Assembly: GCA_964016885.1 (NCBI GenBank) | Contig: OZ024751.1 | Span: forward strand, 7,626,001 to 7,690,000 | DNA: 64,000 bases | Reading direction: 5' to 3' | From: Eledone cirrhosa | Taxonomy: Eukaryota | Program-made: the position numbers and the translations under genes | Shown: positions 9,801 to 63,470 of the stretch, piece by piece | How the letters are laid out: each line of letters begins with the position of its first letter | Position numbering within the stretch: the first letter of the stretch is position 1 | The notes under the pieces: generated by a model | Told to the model about the DNA's origin: nothing | Database searches by the model: none | What the model saw: only the letters and a program-made list of their open reading frames with translations

Positions 9801-9862
9801 GTATTTTATCTGATGAAAGCGTACCAAAGTTTTGGACCCTTGAAATATATATAATAGAATAC
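9801..9862 (+). ncRNA. Minimal type I hammerhead ribozyme (H1)
   Basis: gtattttat CTGATGA aagcgtaccaaagttttggaccctt GAAA tatata TA atagaatac; tail ends in (TA)n at ~9907. Confidence 0.8.
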
Positions 9863-12850: not shown

Positions 12851-13080
12851 TATATATAACTATATACATATAAATATATATGGATATGTATATATGTATA
12901 TATATATGTATATATGTATATATATAATATGTATATATATATATATATATATATATGTAGGAGGTGAGTTTTATTGTAGTACAATAAAGCAATGCAGATA
13001 TCGGATAAGAAGCACTCTACAGTTTGTGGGACTGGAGTATGCATAATATAAGATCAAAAGATGGTTAAAGGAGTTCCTTA

Positions 13081-13150
13081 TATTTTATTATGCGCATTTC
13101 AAAAACAAACATCATCAAGCAATAATATTTGTGTTTTCATCAGATAAAAC
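13081..13150 (-). ncRNA. Type I hammerhead ribozyme (H3)
   Basis: Minus strand: gttttat CTGATGA aaacacaaatattatt..gatgatgtttgttttt GAAA tgcgca TA ataaaata; palindromic stem III. Confidence 0.85.
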
Positions 13151-14217
13151 AGGAGAACATGATATGAAGGCTAAAAAACACTTGTGGATAGTGCAGTTTT
13201 AAATCAACATATGAAAAGTGGTTTTAGATTGATGTGTGATATTGGGAAAAATATTTTATTTAGAGATGGGGGGGATGAACAGGGAAGGAGATGAGAGGGA
13301 GAGATGGGTGATAGAGAGAAAGAGATAGTTTTTATAACTGAGAGGAGATATATTTTTTACATAGAGGGGTTGAAAACCGTTGGAAGATACTGTATAAATT
13401 AAAAATTTTGAAAATTAACGAAGGGAGGATATGTGCGAGGAAAAAATATTTTATTTAGGGAGGAGGGGTGGAAAGGATGAAAAAACGAACTCATTATTAA
13501 TACATATTAACTCTTTATTCGCACATATCATCAATTCAATATACAAACTTTAACTTCACATTATTTTTCTCAAATCCTTCTACACACAAACCTTAACAAT
13601 TTTTCTCTTCGCTAATTTTGAAATTGCCACAATACATACATTTCTTCTTTTGACGTTAGAATATTCACCCACAATTATTATTTTTTTTCTCTCTATCTTC
13701 ATACATAATTTCCCTTCGTTAATTTTCAAATTCCTTTAATTTATACATTATCTTCCAACGGTTCCCAACCTCTCTATATTAAAACAATATATCTTTTTCT
13801 CAGTTATAAAAACTATCTCTTTCTCTCTATCACCCATCTCTCCCTCTCCACCTTCACTCTCATCTCCTCCCCCTTTTTTTCATCCTTTCCACCCCCCCTC
13901 CCTAAATAAAATCTTTTTTCCTCGCACATATCCTCCCTTCGTTAATTTTCAAAATTTTTAATTTATACAGTATCTTCCAACGGTTTTCAACCCCTCTATG
14001 TAAAAAATATATCTCCTCTCAGTTATAAAAACTATCTCTTTCTCTCTATCACCCATCTCTCCCTCTCATCTCCTTCCCTTTTCATCCTTTCCCCCCCCCC
14101 CTCTCTAAATGAAATATTTTTCCCAATATCACACATCAATCTAAAACCACTTTTCATATGTTGATTTAAAACTGCACTATTCACAAGTGTTTTTTAGCCT
14201 TCATATCATGTTCTCCT

Positions 14218-14287
14218 GTTTTATCTGATGAAAACACAAATATTATTGCTTGATGATGTTTGTTTTTGAAATGCGCATAATAAAATA
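14218..14287 (+). ncRNA. Type I hammerhead ribozyme (H3)
   Basis: gttttat CTGATGA aaacacaaatattatt..gatgatgtttgttttt GAAA tgcgca TA ataaaata. Confidence 0.85.
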
Positions 14288-14317
14288 TATGGAACTCCTT
14301 TAACCATCTTTTGATCT

Positions 14318-14376
<59 letters not shown>

Positions 14377-22008: not shown

Positions 22009-22046
<38 letters not shown>

Positions 22047-22048
<2 letters not shown>

Positions 22049-24275
22049 AACTTTGATGTCACGATGGGGTCCAGTGACTCATCGCAAGCAACTGACCTGG
22101 TCGGGATATACCTCCTACATAATCTTAGGGAAGAGATACCGGCCCTACACGGAGGTGTATTATGGGACGACGCCCTGTTTACCGTTAGGAACCATAGCCC
22201 CCGTAGGATAGGTAACCTTAACAAACATATACACAGGTTCTTCAAGTCATACGGCCTATCCGTAACAATGGACCTCAACCACAAGGTTGTCAACTTCCTG
22301 GACGTGTGTCTAGAGTTGAGTACGGGCTTATACAAGCCATACCATAAGCCTGGAGAGTGTCTCTCTTATATTAATTATACCTCCAACCACCCTAAGCAGA
22401 CTCTCAACTCCATAGTCTATAGTATCTCACATAGAATCTTGAGGCTATCCGCCAATGAGGAATACTTCAACCAAGCGGCAGATTACTACAATAGGGCTTA
22501 ACCGAGGAAGTTCCTACATCCCTAACGCCAGCTCTAGAACCCCCCCCCTCATAAAACGAACGTTATAGTAAGTCATACCTGTAACCGATCACTCGTTGAA
22601 ATCGGATATAATAGAATAGATAACCGCACTAAATTCACGACCCCGGCGAAGCTGACCACTGTAGATTACTCAACTATTCCCCTATTACAAAACCAACAAA
22701 GGCTACGGCCTACTAACAACGCCTTCCAACCATCATGTTTATCTACATAAACATGGAAGACGTAAGAAGAATGCACCCGAGCATAAAGCGAAAGGGACAC
22801 CGAACGGGCGACGGCGCATTAACACATATAAGAGCGGACACCTAGATGGAACCACCCGTAGCAAACGTACAAGGACACGTAATCGCCACCGTAACGTCCT
22901 ATGGTGCCACCCCACCCCCTACTCTCGGAGTGTGGCCTCCAACATACCCCGGATGTTCTTCGAAGCCTTAGAGAATAACTTTCCGCCCAACCATAGGTAT
23001 AGAAAAATTCTTAATAGGAACGATATAAAAATATCCTTCTCTACTACTCCTAACCTAGCAGACATCATAGAAACAACAAACCACAGTAAGATCACCAAGA
23101 CACAGCACCTCGACACAGATGCACCTACCCCTGATAATAACTATATCGGCCTTAACAACCCCCTGGCAGCATACAATAGTGTTGGCAACGGCATCCGCAA
23201 ACGCAACCAGCATAACCGCGAAATGACTGGGGAACATGCAGCACATGACGTGCGGAATAACAATCACACCACCCCGCGTGCTGTGGGTTGTAATGGTGCT
23301 AACGACAGCTGCGGGAGCGTAGGTAACAACGTAGGCAGCAACAATGATAGCCTTACCGTGGGAAATAGACGGAACGCGACAGAAATTGCAACTGCCGCGA
23401 CAGAGGACGCTGCCCTCTTAGAGGATACTGCTTGACTGATAGGGTTATATATAGATGCACTATAACTAGCCACAATAGCGTTAAACATTATATACGGGCT
23501 ACGTCCGACCCGCTCAAAATTAGGTTTCGAACACATCTCCACTCTTTCACAAATAAAAAAACTAAGACACTCCACTTCGCTCCCGGACTACATCACATCA
23601 CTAAAGGACTTAAACATCAGTTTCACCATGCACTGGGATATTTTCGGCAGGGCTGCACCGTGCAACTTCGAGAGGAAATGCGATATTTGCCTCGTGGAGC
23701 TCTACCACATCATAACTGCACCCCAACATCAACAGCATAGCTGAAACAGCGATAAGTTGTACACATCGCTTAAAAATATCCTTCTTCAGATGGGTTAAGG
23801 ATGAGGAGTGAAACCGTGCAACGGATCTCCCTGCAACAAGTCTTAACACCCCGGCGGGCAGGCGCTGCAAAATAACACCCAGGAAACTATCCTTGCATAC
23901 CAGACCCAGCCTCAAACGACTCAGACAAACAGATGCGGCAAAAAAAAACTCTCAAAATAAGCGTTGATTACATGCGTATCGACAATGGTAAGGTTGTAAC
24001 CTCATCTCGTAGCGGATAAAACATTTGTCCGGGAAAGACTGCCCTAACACCGAGCAGAGTTACCTCCCTTGACCGGCTGCACTATCAAAACAAGTTATTT
24101 TTGCGAGCAATGAACCTTGAGGTGGATATAACCCCCAAAACTCTTTCCGATCAATGTAAGGAACACTTTTGATTATGTATGCCCTTGAGAAGCCCAACTG
24201 GGCCAAACGTACGTAGGTGCTGTTTTAAATAAACATGTTTTAACGGTCTATTCTCCGATTTCTTACTTTCCCACA
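22047..24275 (+). mobile_element. 5'-truncated, frameshifted Naiad-type Penelope-like element (RT + GIY-YIG)
   Basis: FDVTMGSSDSSQATDLVG, VVNFLDVCLEL, YINYTSNHP, FPPNHRYRKILNRNDIKISFSTTPNL, NCNCRDRGRCPLRGYCLTDRVIYRC, KCDICLVE; starts directly after (TA)n; degenerate HHR at 24180-24220. Confidence 0.9.
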
Positions 24276-26428: not shown

Positions 26429-26728
26429 ATGTATGTATGTATATATGTATGCATGTATATATATGTATGTATATATATATATATATATGTGTATGTATCA
26501 ACCTGATTAGTTTTATCAGTCCTTTGGTATATATTGTGTGTTAGTTTAGCCTACCGCAATGTTCGATTTGTCAAGCTATTTAAACGTATGTTATAACTCT
26601 GATACCTATCTTATCGAGTGCTTTGCTAACTCATCACTTCATATAAGTAGGCCGAATTTACTTGCAAACCGCCAGAGATTCGATTTTATTGATTTCCTAT
26701 TATAAATATATATATATATATATGTATA

Positions 26729-27670
26729 TATAAATGAGACGTATAGAGATTGTTTTAGCAAGAAGCTAACGGCATTCTATAACATATATGCGACTATAAC
26801 GTCAAGATGGGAAAAGTAGTTAACGAAAGATTTAGGAAAAATAACTCAAACTCATCTCAAAAGAGAATCAGGATACAAATTCATCCACAGAATTTAGTAA
26901 AATCCATGGAAAAATCTATAGACCCTTAACTCATGATAAAACAAAGTTTGAAACACTTATCCTTCAATTTGGAATAACATCAAATGCTCTGTATAGTCTT
27001 AAAAGACTATTTCATGAAAACTTTCAGTGGAGATGGTCACGGTTGGAATATCATTCATCAGCAGAGCTCAACAGAAAACCAGGGCTCTCACAGTAATATA
27101 GTCCGAAAAAGGGAATTCTAAAACTGGCTAGTTCGCCTTCATGTGTATTTATGAAAAAGCACATGAGGAAAAAACGGGGCTAGTGACGTCAGGATGGAAG
27201 TGAATGTTTATTTACAAGAAATAGCAGTCAAATACATTCTGAAAAAAAAACTCTACAAGGAGTTCAGCAAAATAGCAATAATTATCACAGTTTTTATGAA
27301 AAAAACCGGGATTAGTCACAGATAGTTTAAGCACTCTAGGAAAAGAATCCGAGTATAAATATAAATGAGACGTATAGAGATTGTTTTAGCAAGAAGCTAA
27401 CGGCATTCTATAACATATATGCGACTATAACGTCAAGATGGGAAAAGTAGTTAACGAAAGATTTAGGAAAAATAACTCAAACTCATCTCAAAAGAGAATC
27501 AGGATACAAATTCATCCACAGAATTTAGTAAAATCCATGGAAAAATCTATAGACCCTTAACTCATGATAAAACAAAGTTTGAAACACTTATCCTTCAATT
27601 TGGAATAACATCAAATGCTCTGTATAGTCTTAAAAGACTATTTCATGAAAACTTTCAGTGGAGATGGTCA
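26729..27670 (-). mobile_element. Retrozyme-like / mini-PLE 1.5-mer of a 631-nt non-coding unit, TA-flanked
   Basis: 26729-27039 appears identical to 27360-27670 (period 631); intact HHR spans the repeat boundary; no credible ORF. Confidence 0.8.
26986..27067 (-). ncRNA. Canonical type I hammerhead ribozyme (H7)
   Basis: Minus strand: gctctg CTGATGA atgatatt..gttttcat GAAA tagtct-ttta-agacta TA cagagc; 6-bp perfect stems I and III. Confidence 0.9.
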
Positions 27671-27779
27671 TATATATGTATATATATATATGTGTGTATA
27701 TGTATGTAAATATATGTATGTATATATATGTATATATATTATGTGTATATATCTATTTATCTATCTATCTATCTATCTA

Positions 27780-29753: not shown

Positions 29754-31220
29754 CGTGTATACACATAATTAAATAAACGTATATACATAAATAAATACGT
29801 ATATAACAAGCGCACACACATACCTACATCTAAATAAACATATGTTCGGAGACGACGTCAACTAAAACACAAAGTACACATAAACACACACCCTACATAC
29901 GTACGAACCCGCATACTCACACAGACCCAAAACTCACGTATACTCATAACCAAAAGCATTTGTACCAGAATATATAATATATACGCCATAACATGTAGTA
30001 ATGATAGTAATGGTATAAACATAACATATACTTAGCTACCACATCAAGACGTAAAATATCCGCGTATAGGTTCGTAATATCCGTGAGGGTATAATGTGGG
30101 GCTGTAATACAGGAAAGTTTTGTGCAATTTATGTTTACAAGCCTCAGATTTTTGTTTAAGATGTTGTCTTTGACGTTGATTATTCCCAGGGCCTCAGCGG
30201 CACAGAGGTGACTTGTTTTTTATTTCCGTTATACGATCTAGCCCTAGCTTAGATCTCCCAGTGTAACTTATATTGGGTGTGGTTGTCTTTTAGACTCCAG
30301 ATATAAGCTGAAAATGACGTCATATTCCTTCTTAAATAGTTACGGAAAGAATGGGTATGCATGTAAAGACGCTGCTTGAATATATTGGCGGTTAACCCTA
30401 TGTAAGCCCTACGGTGTTTCAACCTTACATTTGTAGACAATGTTACTAGAGAGGCATTTCCCGGATAGGGGACTGTCAACCCGATTCCTACAATTACAGT
30501 TACTACTAACTACAAGGTTGCACATGTTCCTACGGCTAGGTAGTTTAGCTAAATTTGAAGCTGTGATATTATGTGCACGGTTAGGAGTCGTAGAGTAAGA
30601 CATTTTTAGGGAATTTCTATTAAAATTTTACATTATCTATGTGTAGAGGGAAAATGATTCATAATAAGGGAGCGAAAGATCTTAGCTAATGGTGTGGCCA
30701 CCTTCATATTATATGGTGGGTTATACCATATATACGTCGGGATCTATTTCTTCTACGTTATTCTCGTACTCTGTATTTGCTACCTTATCGACAAATCCAC
30801 TCCGAGCAAGAGCCTCATTGTAATGTGTGGAATGGTCGTTGAAAATATGCTCGTTAGTAGATATACGGGAAAGCCTCAAAGAAACGTTTTTTACCAGGTT
30901 CTTAGTTATGCTGGCAGGATGGTTAGAAAGCTTACTTATGTAATTAAGCGTATCTTTCGGCTTTCTATTCGGGTAATGCAAGTCATTCGATAAATTGAGG
31001 GTAACGTTGAGGTAATTAACGACCGAGAGGTTGGCCTCAACCTGTATGGAGAGGTTGAAGCCTTTAAAGAAGGTTGTGAGTTCTTTTCTGAACCCGTCGC
31101 AAGCACGTGGGTCGCACTTAGTCATGGTAAAAAGACCGTCATCACGGTACAAACCACGGCCCACGTTGGGGAATTCTTCCTTGATAGAGAAAAGAAGGGA
31201 AAGACCGATAAGATCAGTAA

Positions 31221-31222
<2 letters not shown>
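29034..31222 (-). mobile_element. Degenerate Naiad-type PLE related to 59187-61997, TA-flanked on both sides
   Basis: GLYRDDGL, VVNYLNVTLNL, SYSTTPN, NCNCRNRVDSPLSGKCLSSNIVYKC, AYIGLTAN; 3'UTR colinear with 59190-60180. Confidence 0.92.
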
Positions 31223-59031: not shown

Positions 59032-59192
<161 letters not shown>

Positions 59193-59208
59193 TAAAATAG
59201 CAGATTAA

Positions 59209-59259
59209 AGTTTAAGCAAGGAATCGCTGCTTTCACCCTTAACGGGATCTTCTGAAACT
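59209..59259 (-). ncRNA. Atypical HHR-like motif at the Naiad 3' end (U4->A)
   Basis: Minus strand: agttt CAGAAGA tcccgttaagggt GAAA gcag-cgattcc-ttgc TT aaact; right-arm copy 63271-63321 has GGAA. Confidence 0.5.
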
Positions 59260-60184
59260 AACAAAGTCAATCTGTAAACGCAGAACTGGATATTTCAAAA
59301 AACGTTGCAACCGGAGGAAGACAGGAAGACGATACTTTGGTTCATGGTGACGCTCGCTGGCAAAGAACGGGAAAAACGAATAATACGTCATTAATAGGAG
59401 CGGTGAAAAACAAAAACGTGCAAGGACAGAACCACGTTTATGGTATAAAAGAGGTCGTAGACTAATGTTCTCTAAGTGGTGCATAGAGACGTTCTCTGGC
59501 AATGAACGAAAAAAACGAAGATAATAAGTCATATGTGGAACGTGGAGAACAATAGCGTGCAAAGACAAAACCACGTAAATGGTATAGCAGAAGTCGTAGA
59601 CTAAAATTCTAACTAGGAGACCGAATGAATCTCCGCTACAGAGTTCAGAACAAAGTAAATAAATACAATACAGAAGTAATAGGAACAAACAAATACATAC
59701 ACGCAAACAGATACGTACATACACAAGCATACGCAAAACCTTACCATAGGTATACAAAACCACGCACATATAAATATGTGTATGTGTGTATGCTTGTGTA
59801 CAAATAAATAAATAATTATATAAACGTATATAAGTAAATAAATACGTATATAACAAGCGCACACACATACCTACAAATAAATACAAGAAGGTTCGGAGAC
59901 GTAAGTCAACTAAAACAAGAAGTACACATATACACACACCCACCATACGTACGAATCTGCATACTCACGCAGACGCAAAACTCCCAAATACACATAACCA
60001 AGCCCTAAATACCAGAATATGTAAAAATTATACGCCAAGACAGTCAAATATACGTACGAGAAGGTATACATACCTTCACAAAACATACGGGTAATATATA
60101 CTTACCTATGCAAATAAGTAAAGGAATAAACAAAACATATACTTAGCTCCCACATCAAGACGTAATATCCACGTATATATCGTG

Positions 60185-61987
60185 CTATCCGTTAGGGTAT
60201 AACGTAGGGCTGTAATACAGGAAAGTTTTGTGCAATTTATGTTTACAAGCCGAAATTGCCTCAGATTTTTTGTTTAAGATGTGGTCTGTGGGGTAGAGTA
60301 TTTCCAGGGCCTCAGCGGCGCAGAGGTCACATGGTCTTTTATTTCCGTAATACCATCTAGCCCTAGCTAGGATCTCCCAGTGTAACTTATATTGGGTGTG
60401 GTTGTCTTTTAGACTCCAGATATAAGCTGAAAGTGACGTCATATTCCTTCTTAGAGGGTAACGAAAAGAATGGGTATGCATGTAAAGACGCTGCTTGAAA
60501 CTATTGGCGGTTAACCCTATGTAGGCCCTACGGGACGTGGGTGTTACAACCTTACATTTGTAGACAATGTTACTAGAGAGGCATTTCCCGGATAGGGGAC
60601 AATCAGCCCGATTCCTACAAATACAGTTAGTACTAACTACAGGGTTGCACGTGTTCCTACGGCTAGGTATTTTAGCTAAATTTGAAGCTGTGATGTTATG
60701 TGCAAGGTTAGGAGTCGTTGAGTAAGAAATTTTAATAGTGTTTCTATTAAAACTTTTACTATATTTATGTGTAGGTGGAAAATGCTTCGTAATAAGGGAA
60801 AGAAAGATCTTAGCTAATGGTGTGGCCACCTCCATATTATATGGTGGGTTAAACCAACAAATGCGACGGGATCTATTTCTTCTAGGTCTATTCTCGTACT
60901 CTGTATATGCTACCTTATCGACAAATCCACTTCGAGCAAGAGCTTCATTGTAATAAGTGGAATGGTCGTTGAAAATGCGCTCGTTGGTGGAAAGACGGGA
61001 AAGCCTCAACGAAACGTTTTTTACCAGGTTCTTGGTTATGCTGGTAGGATGGTGGGAATGCTTACTTATGTAATTAAGCGTATCATTCGGATTTCTATAC
61101 GGGTAATGCAACCCATTCAATAAATTGAGGGTAACGTCGAGGTAATTAACGAACGAGAGATTGGCCTCAACCTGTATAGAGAGGTTGAAGACTTTAAAGA
61201 AGGCTGTGAGTTCTTTTCTGAATCTGTCGCAAGCACGAGGTCCGCACTTAGTCATGGTCAAAAAGCCATCGTCACGGTACAAACCACCGTCCGCGTTGGG
61301 GAATTCGTCCTTGATAGAGAAAAGAAGGAAAAGGCCAATAAGATCAGTAACCTCCGCAGAGTCACTGGCGCCCATACTCACGTCGAATGGGGTACTATTG
61401 GATTTTTTAATCCAAATAGAATCGTCGAAATTAATCACCGACTTTCGGGCATTAAGGATGACATCAACTTCGAAATCCTTAACCACTGTGAGTGTTTTAG
61501 AGAAATTGATAGCTCTAAGGAGAAGTGGTAAAGTGATTGAGGAGTAGTAATTGTTGATGTCGAATTGGATAAAACGGCAATGTTCCTTGTTACATATGCC
61601 GTTGAACCAATCAATCACCGCGAAAGAATTGTTCCACAGTGCGAGAGGGGCCAAATTTCTAATTTCAGGTATAATTCTATCAAGAATCGTTTTACTAAGT
61701 CTACCTAAATCGGACTTCGTAGGGTTAATAAGCCGAATAGAGGGGTTGTTCGGAAAATTGGATTTGTGGTCCTTCAGGGTAAAGTGGGGAGAGATAGGGT
61801 CCAGGGGTTCGGTCCGGTCTAGGATGTTGAGATCAGATGTGATTTTAAACCCAGCATAGTTGATTTCATTGATGACACACCGATTAGTTTTACGGTAATC
61901 CTTAGTTACAGCATTATGTAGTAGTTGATGGTAAGTACTGCGCTCCACTTGATATAGGTTGCCAGTTTTGTCGGAATGGACGTGCAC
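60185..61987 (-). CDS. PLE polyprotein, 5'-truncated: reverse transcriptase + Cys-rich linker + GIY-YIG endonuclease
   Basis: SDKTGNLY, IRLINP, FIQFDINNYYSSI, FDVSMGASDSAEVTDLIG, GLYRDDG, WFNPPY, CICRNRADCPLSGKC, IVYKC..AYIG, CDLC; no internal stops; the GTG start is an artefact of truncation at the inversion junction. Confidence 0.93.
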   Translation of the reverse strand: MHVHSDKTGNLYQVERSTYHQLLHNAVTKDYRKTNRCVINEINYAGFKITSDLNILDRTEPLDPISPHFTLKDHKSNFPNNPSIRLINPTKSDLGRLSKTILDRIIPEIRNLAPLALWNNSFAVIDWFNGICNKEHCRFIQFDINNYYSSITLPLLLRAINFSKTLTVVKDFEVDVILNARKSVINFDDSIWIKKSNSTPFDVSMGASDSAEVTDLIGLFLLFSIKDEFPNADGGLYRDDGFLTMTKCGPRACDRFRKELTAFFKVFNLSIQVEANLSFVNYLDVTLNLLNGLHYPYRNPNDTLNYISKHSHHPTSITKNLVKNVSLRLSRLSTNERIFNDHSTYYNEALARSGFVDKVAYTEYENRPRRNRSRRICWFNPPYNMEVATPLAKIFLSLITKHFPPTHKYSKSFNRNTIKISYSTTPNLAHNITASNLAKIPSRRNTCNPVVSTNCICRNRADCPLSGKCLSSNIVYKCKVVTPTSRRAYIGLTANSFKQRLYMHTHSFRYPLRRNMTSLSAYIWSLKDNHTQYKLHWEILARARWYYGNKRPCDLCAAEALEILYPTDHILNKKSEAISACKHKLHKTFLYYSPTLYPNG

Positions 61988-61997
61988 GGCGTTAGAA

Positions 61998-62333
61998 TGT
62001 AGGCCCTACATAGGGTTAACCGCCAATAGTTTCAAGCAGCGTCTTTACATGCATACCCATTCTTTTCGTTACCCTCTAAGAAGGAATATGACGTCACTTT
62101 CAGCTTATATCTGGAGTCTAAAAGACAACCACACCCAATATAAGTTACACTGGGAGATCCTAGCTAGGGCTAGATCGTATTACGGAAATAAAAGACCATG
62201 TGACCTCTGCGCCGCTGAGGCCCTGGAAATACTCTACGCCACAGACCACATCTTAAACAAAAAATCTGAGGCAATTTCGGCTTGTAAACATAAATTGCAC
62301 AAAACTTTCCTGTATTACAGCCCTACGTTATAA
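61998..62333 (+). pseudogene. Inverted duplicate of the GIY-YIG C-terminal coding segment
   Basis: YIGLTANSFKQRLYMH..TFLYYSPTL matches the end of the 600-aa ORF. Confidence 0.9.
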
Positions 62334-63427
62334 CCTAACGGATAGCACGATCTATACGTGGATATTACGTCTTGATGTGGGAGCTAAGTATATGTTTTGT
62401 TTATTCCTTTACTTATTTGCATAGGTAAGTATATATTACCCGTATGTTTTGTGAAGGTATGTATACCTTCTCGTACGTATATTTCACTGTCTTGGCGTAT
62501 CATTTTTACATATTCTGGTATTTAGGGCTTGGTTATGTGTATTTGGGAGTTTTGCGTCTGCGTGAGTATGCAGGTTCGTACGTATGGTGGGTGTGTGTAT
62601 ATGTGTACTTCTTGTTTTAGTTGACTTACGTCTCCGAACCTTCTTGTATTTATTTGTAGGTATGTGTGTGCGCTTGTTATATACGTATTTATTTACTTAT
62701 ATACGTTTATATAATTATTTATTTATTTGTATACAAGCATACACACATACACATATTTATATGTGCGTGGTTTTGTATACCTATGGTAAGGTTTTGCGTA
62801 TGCTTGTGTATGTACGTATCTGTTTGCGTGTATGTATTTATTTGTTCCTATTACTTCTGTATTGTATTTATTTACTTTGTTCTTAACTCTGTAGCGGAGA
62901 TTCATTCGGTCTCCTAGTTAGAATTTTAGTCTACGACTTCTGCTATACCATTTACGTGGTTTTGTCTTTGCACGCTATTGTTCTCCACGTTCCACATATG
63001 ACTTATTATCTTCGTTTTTTTCGTTCATTGCCAGAGAACGTCTCTTTGCACCACTTAGAGAACATTAGTCTACGACCTCTTTTATACCATAAACGTGGTT
63101 CTGTCCTTGCACGTTTTTGTTTTTCACCGCTCCTATTAATGACGTATTATTCGTTTTTCCCGTTCTTTGCCAGCGAACGTCACCATGAACCAAAGTATCG
63201 TCTTCCTGTCTTCCTCCGGTTGCAACGTTTTTTGAAATATCCAGTTCTGCGTTTACAGATTGACTTTGTTAGTTTCAGAAGATCCCGTTAAGGGTGGAAG
63301 CAGCGATTCTTTGCTTAAACTTTAATCTGTTATTTTAATAAATATTTGCTCTTCGGTTCTTATATATTTGATATATATTTTCCTTATCGAGCCCTCTCTG
63401 GATTTTAGTTTTCAATTTTATTATTAT

Positions 63428-63470
<43 letters not shown>

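What the first reader, a model, noticed from the sequence alone, without database searches (positions are those of the whole stretch)
26729..27670. Young 631-nt non-coding unit in a 1.5-mer with a textbook hammerhead: candidate retrozyme / mini-PLE
Seen: two ~311-bp direct repeats that look identical by eye, period 631, bounded by TA tracts, with no credible ORF. The minus strand holds a complete type I HHR (26986-27067) with perfect 6-bp stems I and III, and the second repeat carries its 3' half (27617-27670). Known: non-LTR retrozymes and PLE pLTRs are small tandem or partial-tandem units with HHRs, and retrozymes yield unit-length linear and circular RNAs. Inference: this was reverse-transcribed from a circular or multimeric 631-nt RNA, probably by a Naiad/Neptune RT like those in this window. 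Repeat identity implies a recent insertion.
Basis: partly seen in the sequence, partly recalled or inferred. Interest (0 to 1): 0.85.

Follow-up and report, generated by a model that had tools for sequence, protein, structure and literature searches.

The report
Hammerhead retrozyme carrying a Penelope tail
A 630-base non-coding repeat with a predicted self-cutting RNA motif has thousands of copies in this animal genome and carries, right at its fixed end, the same small hairpin as an intact Penelope-type jumping gene, whose enzyme likely pastes it into TA repeats from a probably circular RNA.

Summary
Observation confirmed: a 942-bp, 1.49-unit insertion (312-bp exact repeats, period 631) in (TA)n with one complete type I hammerhead (HHR) on the minus strand. 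It belongs to a family with about 2,000 intact HHRs and subfamilies 75-100% identical; stem II covaries. Copies are not circularly permuted: 101 of 106 loci start at one fixed site, the RNA's 3' end, 263 nt downstream of the predicted cut; the other end is variable (0.05-7.4 units). Genome-wide, 2,170 copies read through the cut, 17 end there and 1 starts there. Just past the fixed end lies a bulged hairpin, AUACUC-stem-UAGAGUGCU, found at the same offset in the tails of Hydra-type Penelope-like elements (PLEs), one of them young with intact 821-codon frames. So this is a non-LTR retrozyme likely mobilised by a Hydra-type enzyme, not Naiad or Neptune, with internal initiation on a seamless template (circle about 55%, uncut multimer about 30%). 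This copy has only one whole ribozyme, so it cannot release a monomer. Cleavage, expression and circles are untested. The scan noted other retrozyme families in this genome before (310-478 nt, mostly two-armed); a look-up by sequence found no note on this one.

The parts
26729..27670 (-). Whole insertion, 942 bp = 1.49 units; RNA sense is the minus strand; fixed 3' end at 26729, variable (truncated) 5' end at 27670
26729..27359 (-). One complete 631-nt unit (u1-u631 counted on the plus strand)
27360..27670 (-). Partial second unit (u1-u311), identical to the first; holds only the 3' part of the ribozyme (27617-27670)
26986..27067 (-). Type I hammerhead; core CUGAUGA 27061-27055, GAAA 27013-27010, predicted cut between 26992 and 26991 (u264/u263)
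   Evidence: cleavage itself untested
26729..26748 (-). Fixed end of nearly all copies, abutting (TA)n: the inferred internal start site of reverse transcription, 263 nt downstream of the cut
27330..27356 (-). Bulged hairpin AUACUC-GGA-loop-UCC-UA-GAGUGCU directly after the start site in the tandem; same motif and offset as in Hydra-type PLE tails; candidate RT recognition element
27272..27359 (-). 88-nt segment laid out like a Hydra-type PLE tail (hairpin 1, second hairpin, UGCUAU end); a rare possible second start near u544-546
   Evidence: second start inconclusive
27184..27191 (.). TGACGTCA palindrome (CRE-like, name recalled), kept in 12 of 14 subfamily representatives; candidate internal promoter element
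   Evidence: function untested
26705..26728 (.). Left (TA)n target tract
27671..27735 (.). Start of the right TA-rich tract joined to the truncated end

Best explanation
This is a 5'-truncated, 1.49-unit copy of an abundant 630-nt non-coding hammerhead repeat (a non-LTR retrozyme) that carries a Hydra-type Penelope tail hairpin and was likely inserted into a TA repeat by a Hydra-type reverse transcriptase/endonuclease, likely starting at a fixed internal site on a probably circular RNA. Steps. (1) Inferred: a source locus of at least 1.54 units (two whole HHRs; 12 of 63 sampled loci) is transcribed on the minus strand, perhaps from an internal promoter around TGACGTCA. (2) Predicted: the two HHRs cut out a 631-nt monomer, which is ligated into a circle, as shown for other metazoan retrozymes. 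(3) Inferred: the PLE protein binds the hairpin just 3' of the start site, nicks (TA)n and primes at u1, where the RNA reads UUUAUA and could pair with the target. (4) Shown by copy structure: synthesis runs through the cut site and past one unit length without a pause and stops at variable points. (5) Shown: the far end is usually joined to TA again. (6) Shown in some long arrays: later DNA-level duplication adds units. This copy stopped 28 nt short of a second whole ribozyme and is a likely dead end. Within this explanation I put the template at circle 55%, uncut multimeric transcript 30%, precise template jump 15%.
For: Fixed end: 63 of 66 loci picked on a near-end motif and 38 of 40 picked on far or middle motifs; TA on the fixed side in 101 of 101, on the far side in 75 of 101. 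The fixed end is the 3' end of the HHR strand, as target-primed reverse transcription requires. Read-through: 1 end in 108 passes of the cut against about 2 expected; genome-wide 17 ends joined to TA against 2,170 read-throughs and 1 start at the cut against 6,423 fixed-end motifs; no insertion at the cut in 150 spanning units. 24 of 63 copies exceed one unit; fall-off is 0.35-0.54 per 315 nt up to 1,260 nt. HHR kept: 1,978 pattern hits, control 0; stem II pair 10.2-11.2 is U-A in 41, C-G in 35 and unpaired in 3 of 79 distinct sequences; pair 10.4-11.4 is A-U 55, U-A 12, G-U 5. Hairpin motif: 15,678 hits, control 8; 1 of 30,000 shuffled units; inner stem varies in pairs (GGA/UCC here, CAG/CUG, UGC/GCA, UGCUC/GAGCA); it sits 2 nt after the shared end both here and in the 821-codon family. 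That family has Hydra motifs, head-to-tail tandems and 22 of 150 scored matches in 821-aa open frames. A sister family with the best tail match (z 4.8, 0 of 2,000 shuffles) runs from tail into a Hydra-type ORF in L317. Precedent: internal initiation downstream of the HHR cut in an anole PLE (PMC11167929); retrozyme circles in coral, mussel and axolotl (PMC7229834).
Against: No RNA, cleavage or circle data. The lowest-energy fold hides the HHR core, Rfam does not score it, and only 1 of 9 Xenopus retrozymes cleaved in vitro (preprint). HHR conservation over the rest of the unit is marginal (8 of 82 against 100 of 549 differences, p 0.06). In the anole PLE uncut RNA was the main substrate, which fits a multimer as well as a circle. 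Long arrays L216, L214, L153 and L167 show alternating or block patterns of DNA-level duplication, so they do not prove rolling-circle copying. Without the positional prior the match to the 821-codon element is not significant (54 of 150 shuffles reach it; tail alignment z 1.5), and the best-matching family is older (88-96% among its best hits), so the exact partner is not pinned. The motif was first noticed by comparison, not predicted. A second start is rare (6 loci) and a control window shows a similar small cluster, whereas the PLE families use two ends often (15 and 6; 17 and 18). No A-to-G editing skew.
Confidence: 0.75

Rival explanations
1. Same Hydra-type enzyme, but the template is an uncut multimeric read-through transcript of long source arrays; the ribozyme only trims transcripts or works slowly, and unit number is regenerated by DNA-level duplication of arrays.
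For: Uncut RNA was the dominant substrate of the anole PLE in vitro. Arrays of 7-10 units exist and some grew by DNA duplication. The predicted fold disfavours the active core by about 2 kcal/mol. L024 carries a family-wide variant in one unit only.
Against: Units of one array mostly share one haplotype (283 shared variants in all units against 79 in some, several of these at homopolymers or ends). No pile-up of 5' ends at one phase that would mark a transcription start. Stem II covariation suggests that cleavage is selected.
Confidence: 0.25
2. The ribozyme cuts out linear monomers and the RT jumps precisely from the 5' end of one to the 3' end of the same or another monomer.
For: PLE RTs are related to telomerase RTs (PMC8557442), which re-use their template (recalled). 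Short re-primed duplications are seen at some far ends (L094, L095, L112).
Against: No excess of ends at the cut, no insertions there in 150 units, and only one copy starts at the monomer's 3' end.
Confidence: 0.12
3. The mobiliser is another enzyme (the window's 713-codon Hydra-type family, another PLE clade or a LINE), and the shared hairpin is a relic of the element's origin.
For: The 713-codon family is abundant, has an 88-89-nt tail and a weak in-register likeness to the unit's tail (46 of 5,000 shuffles; z 2.3). The 821-codon family's full tail aligns poorly (z 1.5).
Against: The hairpin is kept with paired changes across subfamilies down to 75% identity and at the PLE offset; a LINE would prime at the RNA's 3' end, which is used once.
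Confidence: 0.15
4. A DNA-level satellite or minisatellite, or an assembly artefact, with an incidental HHR-like motif.
For: Some long arrays did expand at DNA level.
Against: Dispersed on many contigs, one fixed end, variable other end, insertion in TA, 1.x-mers that cannot arise from sub-unit copies by unequal crossing-over; descriptor 0 of 20,000 shuffles.
Confidence: 0.03

Closest known systems
Metazoan non-LTR retrozymes (Cervera and de la Pena 2020, PMC7229834, parts 2-4 of 6 read; Li, Clavereau and Pollet 2026, 10.64898/2026.07.22.740005, parts 1-3 of 5 read)
   Same: Non-coding tandem unit with a type I HHR, low GC (34%), thousands of copies, monomers to multimers, co-occurring with PLEs; proposed circle-templated insertion by a PLE RT.
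   Different: Unit of 631 nt (150-450 in the 2020 paper, 51-972 in the preprint); stable 7-bp stem III and 33-nt loop 2; one fixed end and a variable end mapped against the cut site. It is not a pLTR derivative by sequence: only a tail module is shared with the PLE, whose own HHR is a short-stem-III type. No RNA data here.
Poseidon PLE of Anolis (Frangieh et al. 2024, PMC11167929, parts 1-2 of 4 read)
   Same: Reverse transcription starts inside the RNA, downstream of the HHR cut, in or beside a stem-loop; AT-rich target; partial tandems.
   Different: Autonomous, with two start sites defining a 30-40-nt tail about 85-90 nt after the cut; here non-coding, one dominant start 263 nt after the cut, and rarely two-armed.
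Hydra-clade PLEs (Craig et al. 2021, PMC8557442, passages and sections 10-11 read)
   Same: (TA)n targeting, HHR near the 3' end, partial tandems; the candidate partners show DKT, CxCx5C, CxxC and CxH motifs.
   Different: The element itself encodes nothing. No non-autonomous Hydra partner or tail hairpin is described in the parts read; supplements not seen.
MRC1 and other non-autonomous Chlamys PLEs of Chlamydomonas (PMC8557442, section 10 read)
   Same: [quoted passage not shown]
   Different: Most Chlamys lack canonical HHRs; different clade and target.

Membership tests
Metazoan non-LTR retrozyme | Type I hammerhead in the unit | tested here: met
   Descriptor hit, 0 of 20,000 shuffles; stem II covariation; no Rfam hit
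Metazoan non-LTR retrozyme | Short non-coding unit, low GC, in tandem copies | tested here: met
   Longest ATG frame 45 aa; GC 34%; arrays up to 7.4 units and more
Metazoan non-LTR retrozyme | At least two consecutive complete HHRs at the locus (the preprint's criterion of an active copy) | tested here: not met
   This copy has one; 12 of 63 sampled family loci are long enough for two. The family qualifies, this copy does not.
Metazoan non-LTR retrozyme | Self-cleavage of the RNA | not testable with these tools
   Needs in vitro transcription
Metazoan non-LTR retrozyme | Expression as unit-length linear and circular RNA | not testable with these tools
   Needs RNA from the organism
Metazoan non-LTR retrozyme | Highly self-paired circle | tested here: inconclusive
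   Circular fold -135 kcal/mol, 60% paired, z -3.7 against 40 shuffles; part of this is the HHR itself
Metazoan non-LTR retrozyme | No PBS or PPT; target-site duplication longer than 4 bp when present | not tested
   Duplications cannot be read in (TA)n; PBS and PPT were not searched
Non-autonomous Penelope-like element | Fixed 3' end, variable 5' truncation, partial tandems | tested here: met
   101 of 106 loci
Non-autonomous Penelope-like element | Internal start downstream of the HHR cut | tested here: met
   263 nt; 1 start at the cut against 6,423 fixed-end motifs
Non-autonomous Penelope-like element | Similarity to an autonomous family at its end | tested here: met
   Tail hairpin at the same offset; limited to the tail, and no single partner proven
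Non-autonomous Penelope-like element | Optional tail (second start site) and inverted second arm | tested here: inconclusive
   6 loci start at u544-546, 2 of them two-armed; control window has a similar cluster; inverted pieces in 3 of 106 loci
pLTR of a coding PLE | Unit continues into an RT/endonuclease frame | tested here: not met
   No such copy seen in 106 sampled loci, 25 old-subfamily loci or 20 divergent loci; nearby PLE pieces lie beyond TA tracts
Hydra clade (candidate mobilisers) | C-terminal GIY-YIG, DKT, RWK-like, CxCx5C, CxxC and CxH motifs, (TA)n target | tested here: met
   Read in P0001/L033 and L275 against section 11 of PMC8557442; RWR and RWT in place of RWK
Hydra clade (candidate mobilisers) | Placement in the clade by RT phylogeny | not tested
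   No reference sequences at hand; Pfam gives no hit for either protein
   Window RT has the endonuclease C-terminal and DKT

The most novel reading that the evidence does not exclude
A composite parasite: a free-standing ribozyme circle, unrelated to the pLTR of its host element, that captured only the Penelope 'tail' as a portable RT-loading and start-site module, the PLE counterpart of a SINE borrowing a LINE 3' end. The hairpin AUACUC-stem-UA-GAGUGCU would then be the first defined cis signal that sets the initiation site of a Hydra-clade RT, and the intact 821-aa protein would roll round any circle that carries it and write multimers into (TA)n.
Probability: 0.35. Interest if true: 0.8.

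Novelty: new variant of a known kind. Interest (0 to 1): 0.56.

Why it matters
That PLE enzymes copy retrozyme circles into genomes has been proposed since 2014 (PMC4209133 passages; PMC7229834 Discussion) and supported by co-occurrence and pLTR homology (2026 preprint); the papers read here do not show it with an enzyme. This family gives the pieces for a direct test: a young RNA of known sequence, an exact start site, a candidate recognition hairpin with natural paired variants, and a young Hydra-type family with intact frames. It also gives genome-wide counts showing that the cut site is neither a start nor a stop for the RT. A positive result would define how PLE RTs choose template and start site, and would be a case of rolling-circle target-primed reverse transcription.

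Tried and rejected
Rfam at gathering and at E up to 5: no HHR family. Pfam on 9 window frames and on both PLE proteins: nothing. BLASTN of the unit against 30 loci of the window's 713-codon PLE family and against the window: no homology, so that family was first set aside. Circular permutation: rejected. Priming from the cut 3' end: rejected. Stops at the cut: rejected. Long arrays as proof of rolling-circle copying: dropped, since several show DNA-level duplication. Second start site: inconclusive. Blind two-block test against the 821-codon element: not significant. Two of the 100 listed motif rows (L280, L281) lie in an unrelated element and were left out of the family list. Sequencing runs: no RNA holder listed; this says nothing on expression. 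No reads were laid on the locus, so this copy's own junctions are not checked against raw data. One alignment mixed strands and was not used. The sigma-70 scan is not relevant to an animal genome. Paper searches found no description of this family or hairpin; supplements were not read (the preprint's are closed; those of PMC8557442 may list Hydra families of related animals), and Repbase and Dfam were not available.

Full report
Observation. The window holds two exact 312-bp repeats, 26728-27039 and 27359-27670, period 631, between TA tracts. The insertion is 942 bp, or 1.49 units. I number the unit u1-u631 along the plus strand from 26729. The minus strand has a type I hammerhead at 26986-27067 with stem I 6 bp, stem II 4 bp and a 33-nt loop, stem III 7 bp including A15.1-U16.1, and an AUA triplet; the predicted cut is u264/u263. 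The descriptor hit 0 of 20,000 shuffled units. Rfam did not score it. The free fold of the 82-mer pairs the core away (-17.4 kcal/mol against -15.5 for the constrained HHR fold). The second repeat lacks CUGAUGA, so the locus has one whole ribozyme. The longest ATG frame is 45 aa.

Family. The genome is 3.0 Gb. A DNA search scored 40 of 2,315 candidates, all 99-100% over the unit. Exact patterns give 281 hits for a 26-mer of the youngest subfamily, 1,978 intact HHR patterns (control 0) and 6,423 fixed-end motifs (control 1; this count includes internal junctions of older subfamilies). Subfamilies range down to 75% identity and keep a unit of about 630 nt. Between the window unit and the majority of 25 old-subfamily rows, 8 of 82 HHR positions differ, all in or beside stem II, against 100 of 549 elsewhere (p 0.06). 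In 79 of 86 distinct HHR sequences that share one register, pair 10.2-11.2 is U-A 41, C-G 35, unpaired 3, and pair 10.4-11.4 is A-U 55, U-A 12, G-U 5, unpaired 7; these counts reflect a few events, not many. Stems I and III are nearly invariant.

Polarity. Sample A is the 66 loci behind the first 100 of 281 rows; 63 start at u1. Sample B is 40 loci picked on motifs at u590-614 (37 loci) or u310-333 (3 loci) that were not in sample A; 38 start at u1, one at u430, one in a gap. So copies are not permuted. The fixed end is the 3' end of the HHR strand and abuts TA in 101 of 101; the far end is followed by TA in 75 of 101. In sample A 18 of 63 copies are under 100 nt, 24 exceed one unit, and 12 are long enough (970 nt) for two whole ribozymes; fall-off is 0.35-0.54 per 315 nt up to 1,260 nt. 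Inverted pieces occur in 3 of 106 loci.

The cut site is neither start nor stop. One of 108 passes ended at u258-270, against about 2 expected. Genome-wide, 17 copies end there joined to TA and 2,170 read through; one starts there. No insertion was seen at the cut in 150 spanning units. On a cut linear monomer the start site lies 263 nt from the 5' end, so longer copies need a circle, an uncut multimer or a precise jump (inference). This is the layout shown for the anole Poseidon element, where the RT starts internally, downstream of the HHR cut, and uncut RNA was the main substrate in vitro (PMC11167929, parts 1-2 of 4). Circles are shown for coral, mussel and axolotl retrozymes and proposed as RT templates (PMC7229834, parts 2-4 of 6; PMC4209133, passages).

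Limits of the array evidence. Units within an array differ by 3.9 substitutions on average against 12.7 between loci, but the nearest other locus is also 3.9 away. L150 and L178 have 3 and 5 near-identical units; L216, L214, L153 and L167 show alternating or block patterns that point to later DNA duplication. Long arrays therefore do not prove rolling-circle copying; the many 1.x-mers do show that the RT passed one unit length. No A-to-G skew was found (33 against 40).

Mobiliser. The window's RT at 60185-62005 has a C-terminal GIY-YIG domain with DKT, CxCx5C, CxxC and CxH motifs, the marks of the Hydra clade, which targets (TA)n (PMC8557442, section 11); Naiads have the nuclease N-terminal and lack canonical HHRs (passages). 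The unit has no BLAST homology to this 713-codon family and only a weak tail likeness. Listing other HHR families in the fetched loci showed one with two ends 43 and 134 nt after its cut, and with AUACUC-CAG-loop-CUG-UA-GAGUGCU just after the first end. The retrozyme has AUACUC-GGA-loop-UCC-UA-GAGUGCU at 27356-27330, at the same 2-nt offset from its fixed end. The motif has 15,678 hits in the genome (control 8) and 1 in 30,000 shuffled units. Of the first 100 rows 4 are this family, 2 an unrelated element, and the rest other families with paired inner stems CAG/CUG, UGCUC/GAGCA and UGC/GCA; the 18 such loci fetched mostly end in TA 40-65 nt after the motif. An ORF link is shown for two families: L275/L276, an 821-codon Hydra-type frame in 3,896-bp head-to-tail tandems, with 150 of 150 scored matches 99-100% identical over 121 aa and 22 of them in 821-aa frames (these are the best of 56,336 candidates); and L317, whose tail runs into a frame 58% identical to it. 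The L317/L286 family gives the best tail alignment of 15 tested (z 4.8, 0 of 2,000), but is older (88-96%). The 821-codon family aligns weakly over the whole tail (z 1.5), and a blind whole-element test is not significant (54 of 150 shuffles). So the group is identified and the exact partner is not. The clade label rests on motifs, not on a tree.

Second start. Six loci start at u544-546, 88 nt past the main start, where PLE tails end; L230 and L232 are two-armed with u1 and u544 as outer ends. A control window shows 3 family starts near u428-430 among 100 listed rows, so this is inconclusive. Unlike the PLEs, which use both ends often, this family is almost always single-armed.

Comparison and verdict. 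It works like, and at family level meets the sequence criteria of, a metazoan non-LTR retrozyme; this copy fails the two-ribozyme criterion of the 2026 preprint (parts 1-3 of 5). The preprint derives Xenopus retrozymes from pLTRs by homology; here only a tail module is shared and the ribozyme type differs. Seven paper searches gave no account of this family or hairpin; supplements were not read. Earlier notes of this scan describe other retrozyme families of 310-478 nt in this genome, mostly two-armed; they are leads, not support, and look-ups by sequence and by words found none on this family. I rate it a new variant of a known kind: the class is known and common in this genome, while the single start site, the read-through counts and the shared hairpin with an intact candidate enzyme make the proposed mechanism testable.

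Noticed in passing
window 59190-63430 (ORF 60185-62005, minus): Two-armed Hydra-type PLE of the 713-codon family; its HHR-like motif reads CAGAAGA in place of CUGANGA in every copy looked at, 26 nt from the first end, with an 88-89-nt tail.
   Followed up: partly
window about 12955-14330: Two-armed, ORF-less copy of the 821-codon Hydra-type family: HHRs at 13143 (-) and 14225 (+), tail hairpin at 13040 (-).
   Followed up: partly
window 4628 (-), 5420 (+), 9810 (+), 51792 (-): Four more short-stem-III hammerheads of related PLE families; the one at 9810 resembles the L286/L290 family whose tail best matches the retrozyme.
   Followed up: partly
window 30151-31221 (-) and 22046-23729 (+): Broken copies of two further Hydra-type families, 58% and about 41% identical to P0001.
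   Followed up: no
L094, L095, L109, L112, L119, L015 far ends: Short re-primed duplications of the last 10-25 nt of the element, interleaved with TA, at the truncated end; may record repeated priming during closure of the insertion.
   Followed up: no
L216, L214, L153: Old arrays with recent duplication of a two- or three-unit block; in L216 only every second unit of the block keeps an intact HHR pattern.
   Followed up: partly
window 27184, 30315, 60434, 62089: TGACGTCA occurs in the retrozyme and in both arms of the window's 713-codon PLE (there inside the coding region of the nuclease).
   Followed up: no
L277-L279, L282-L284, L288, L292, L293: Two more abundant families with the same tail hairpin (UGCUC/GAGCA and UGC/GCA inner stems) whose coding partner or unit was not worked out.
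   Followed up: no
window 27018-27050 (-): The 33-nt loop 2 of the ribozyme is conserved across subfamilies down to 75% identity, with no partner found by eye; a tertiary contact or protein site is possible.
   Followed up: partly
sample A and B arrays: Rare variants present in all units of an array are mostly A>G or U>C (18 of 36), those in only some units less so (29 of 149; p 0.0004), suggesting two mutational sources.
   Followed up: partly
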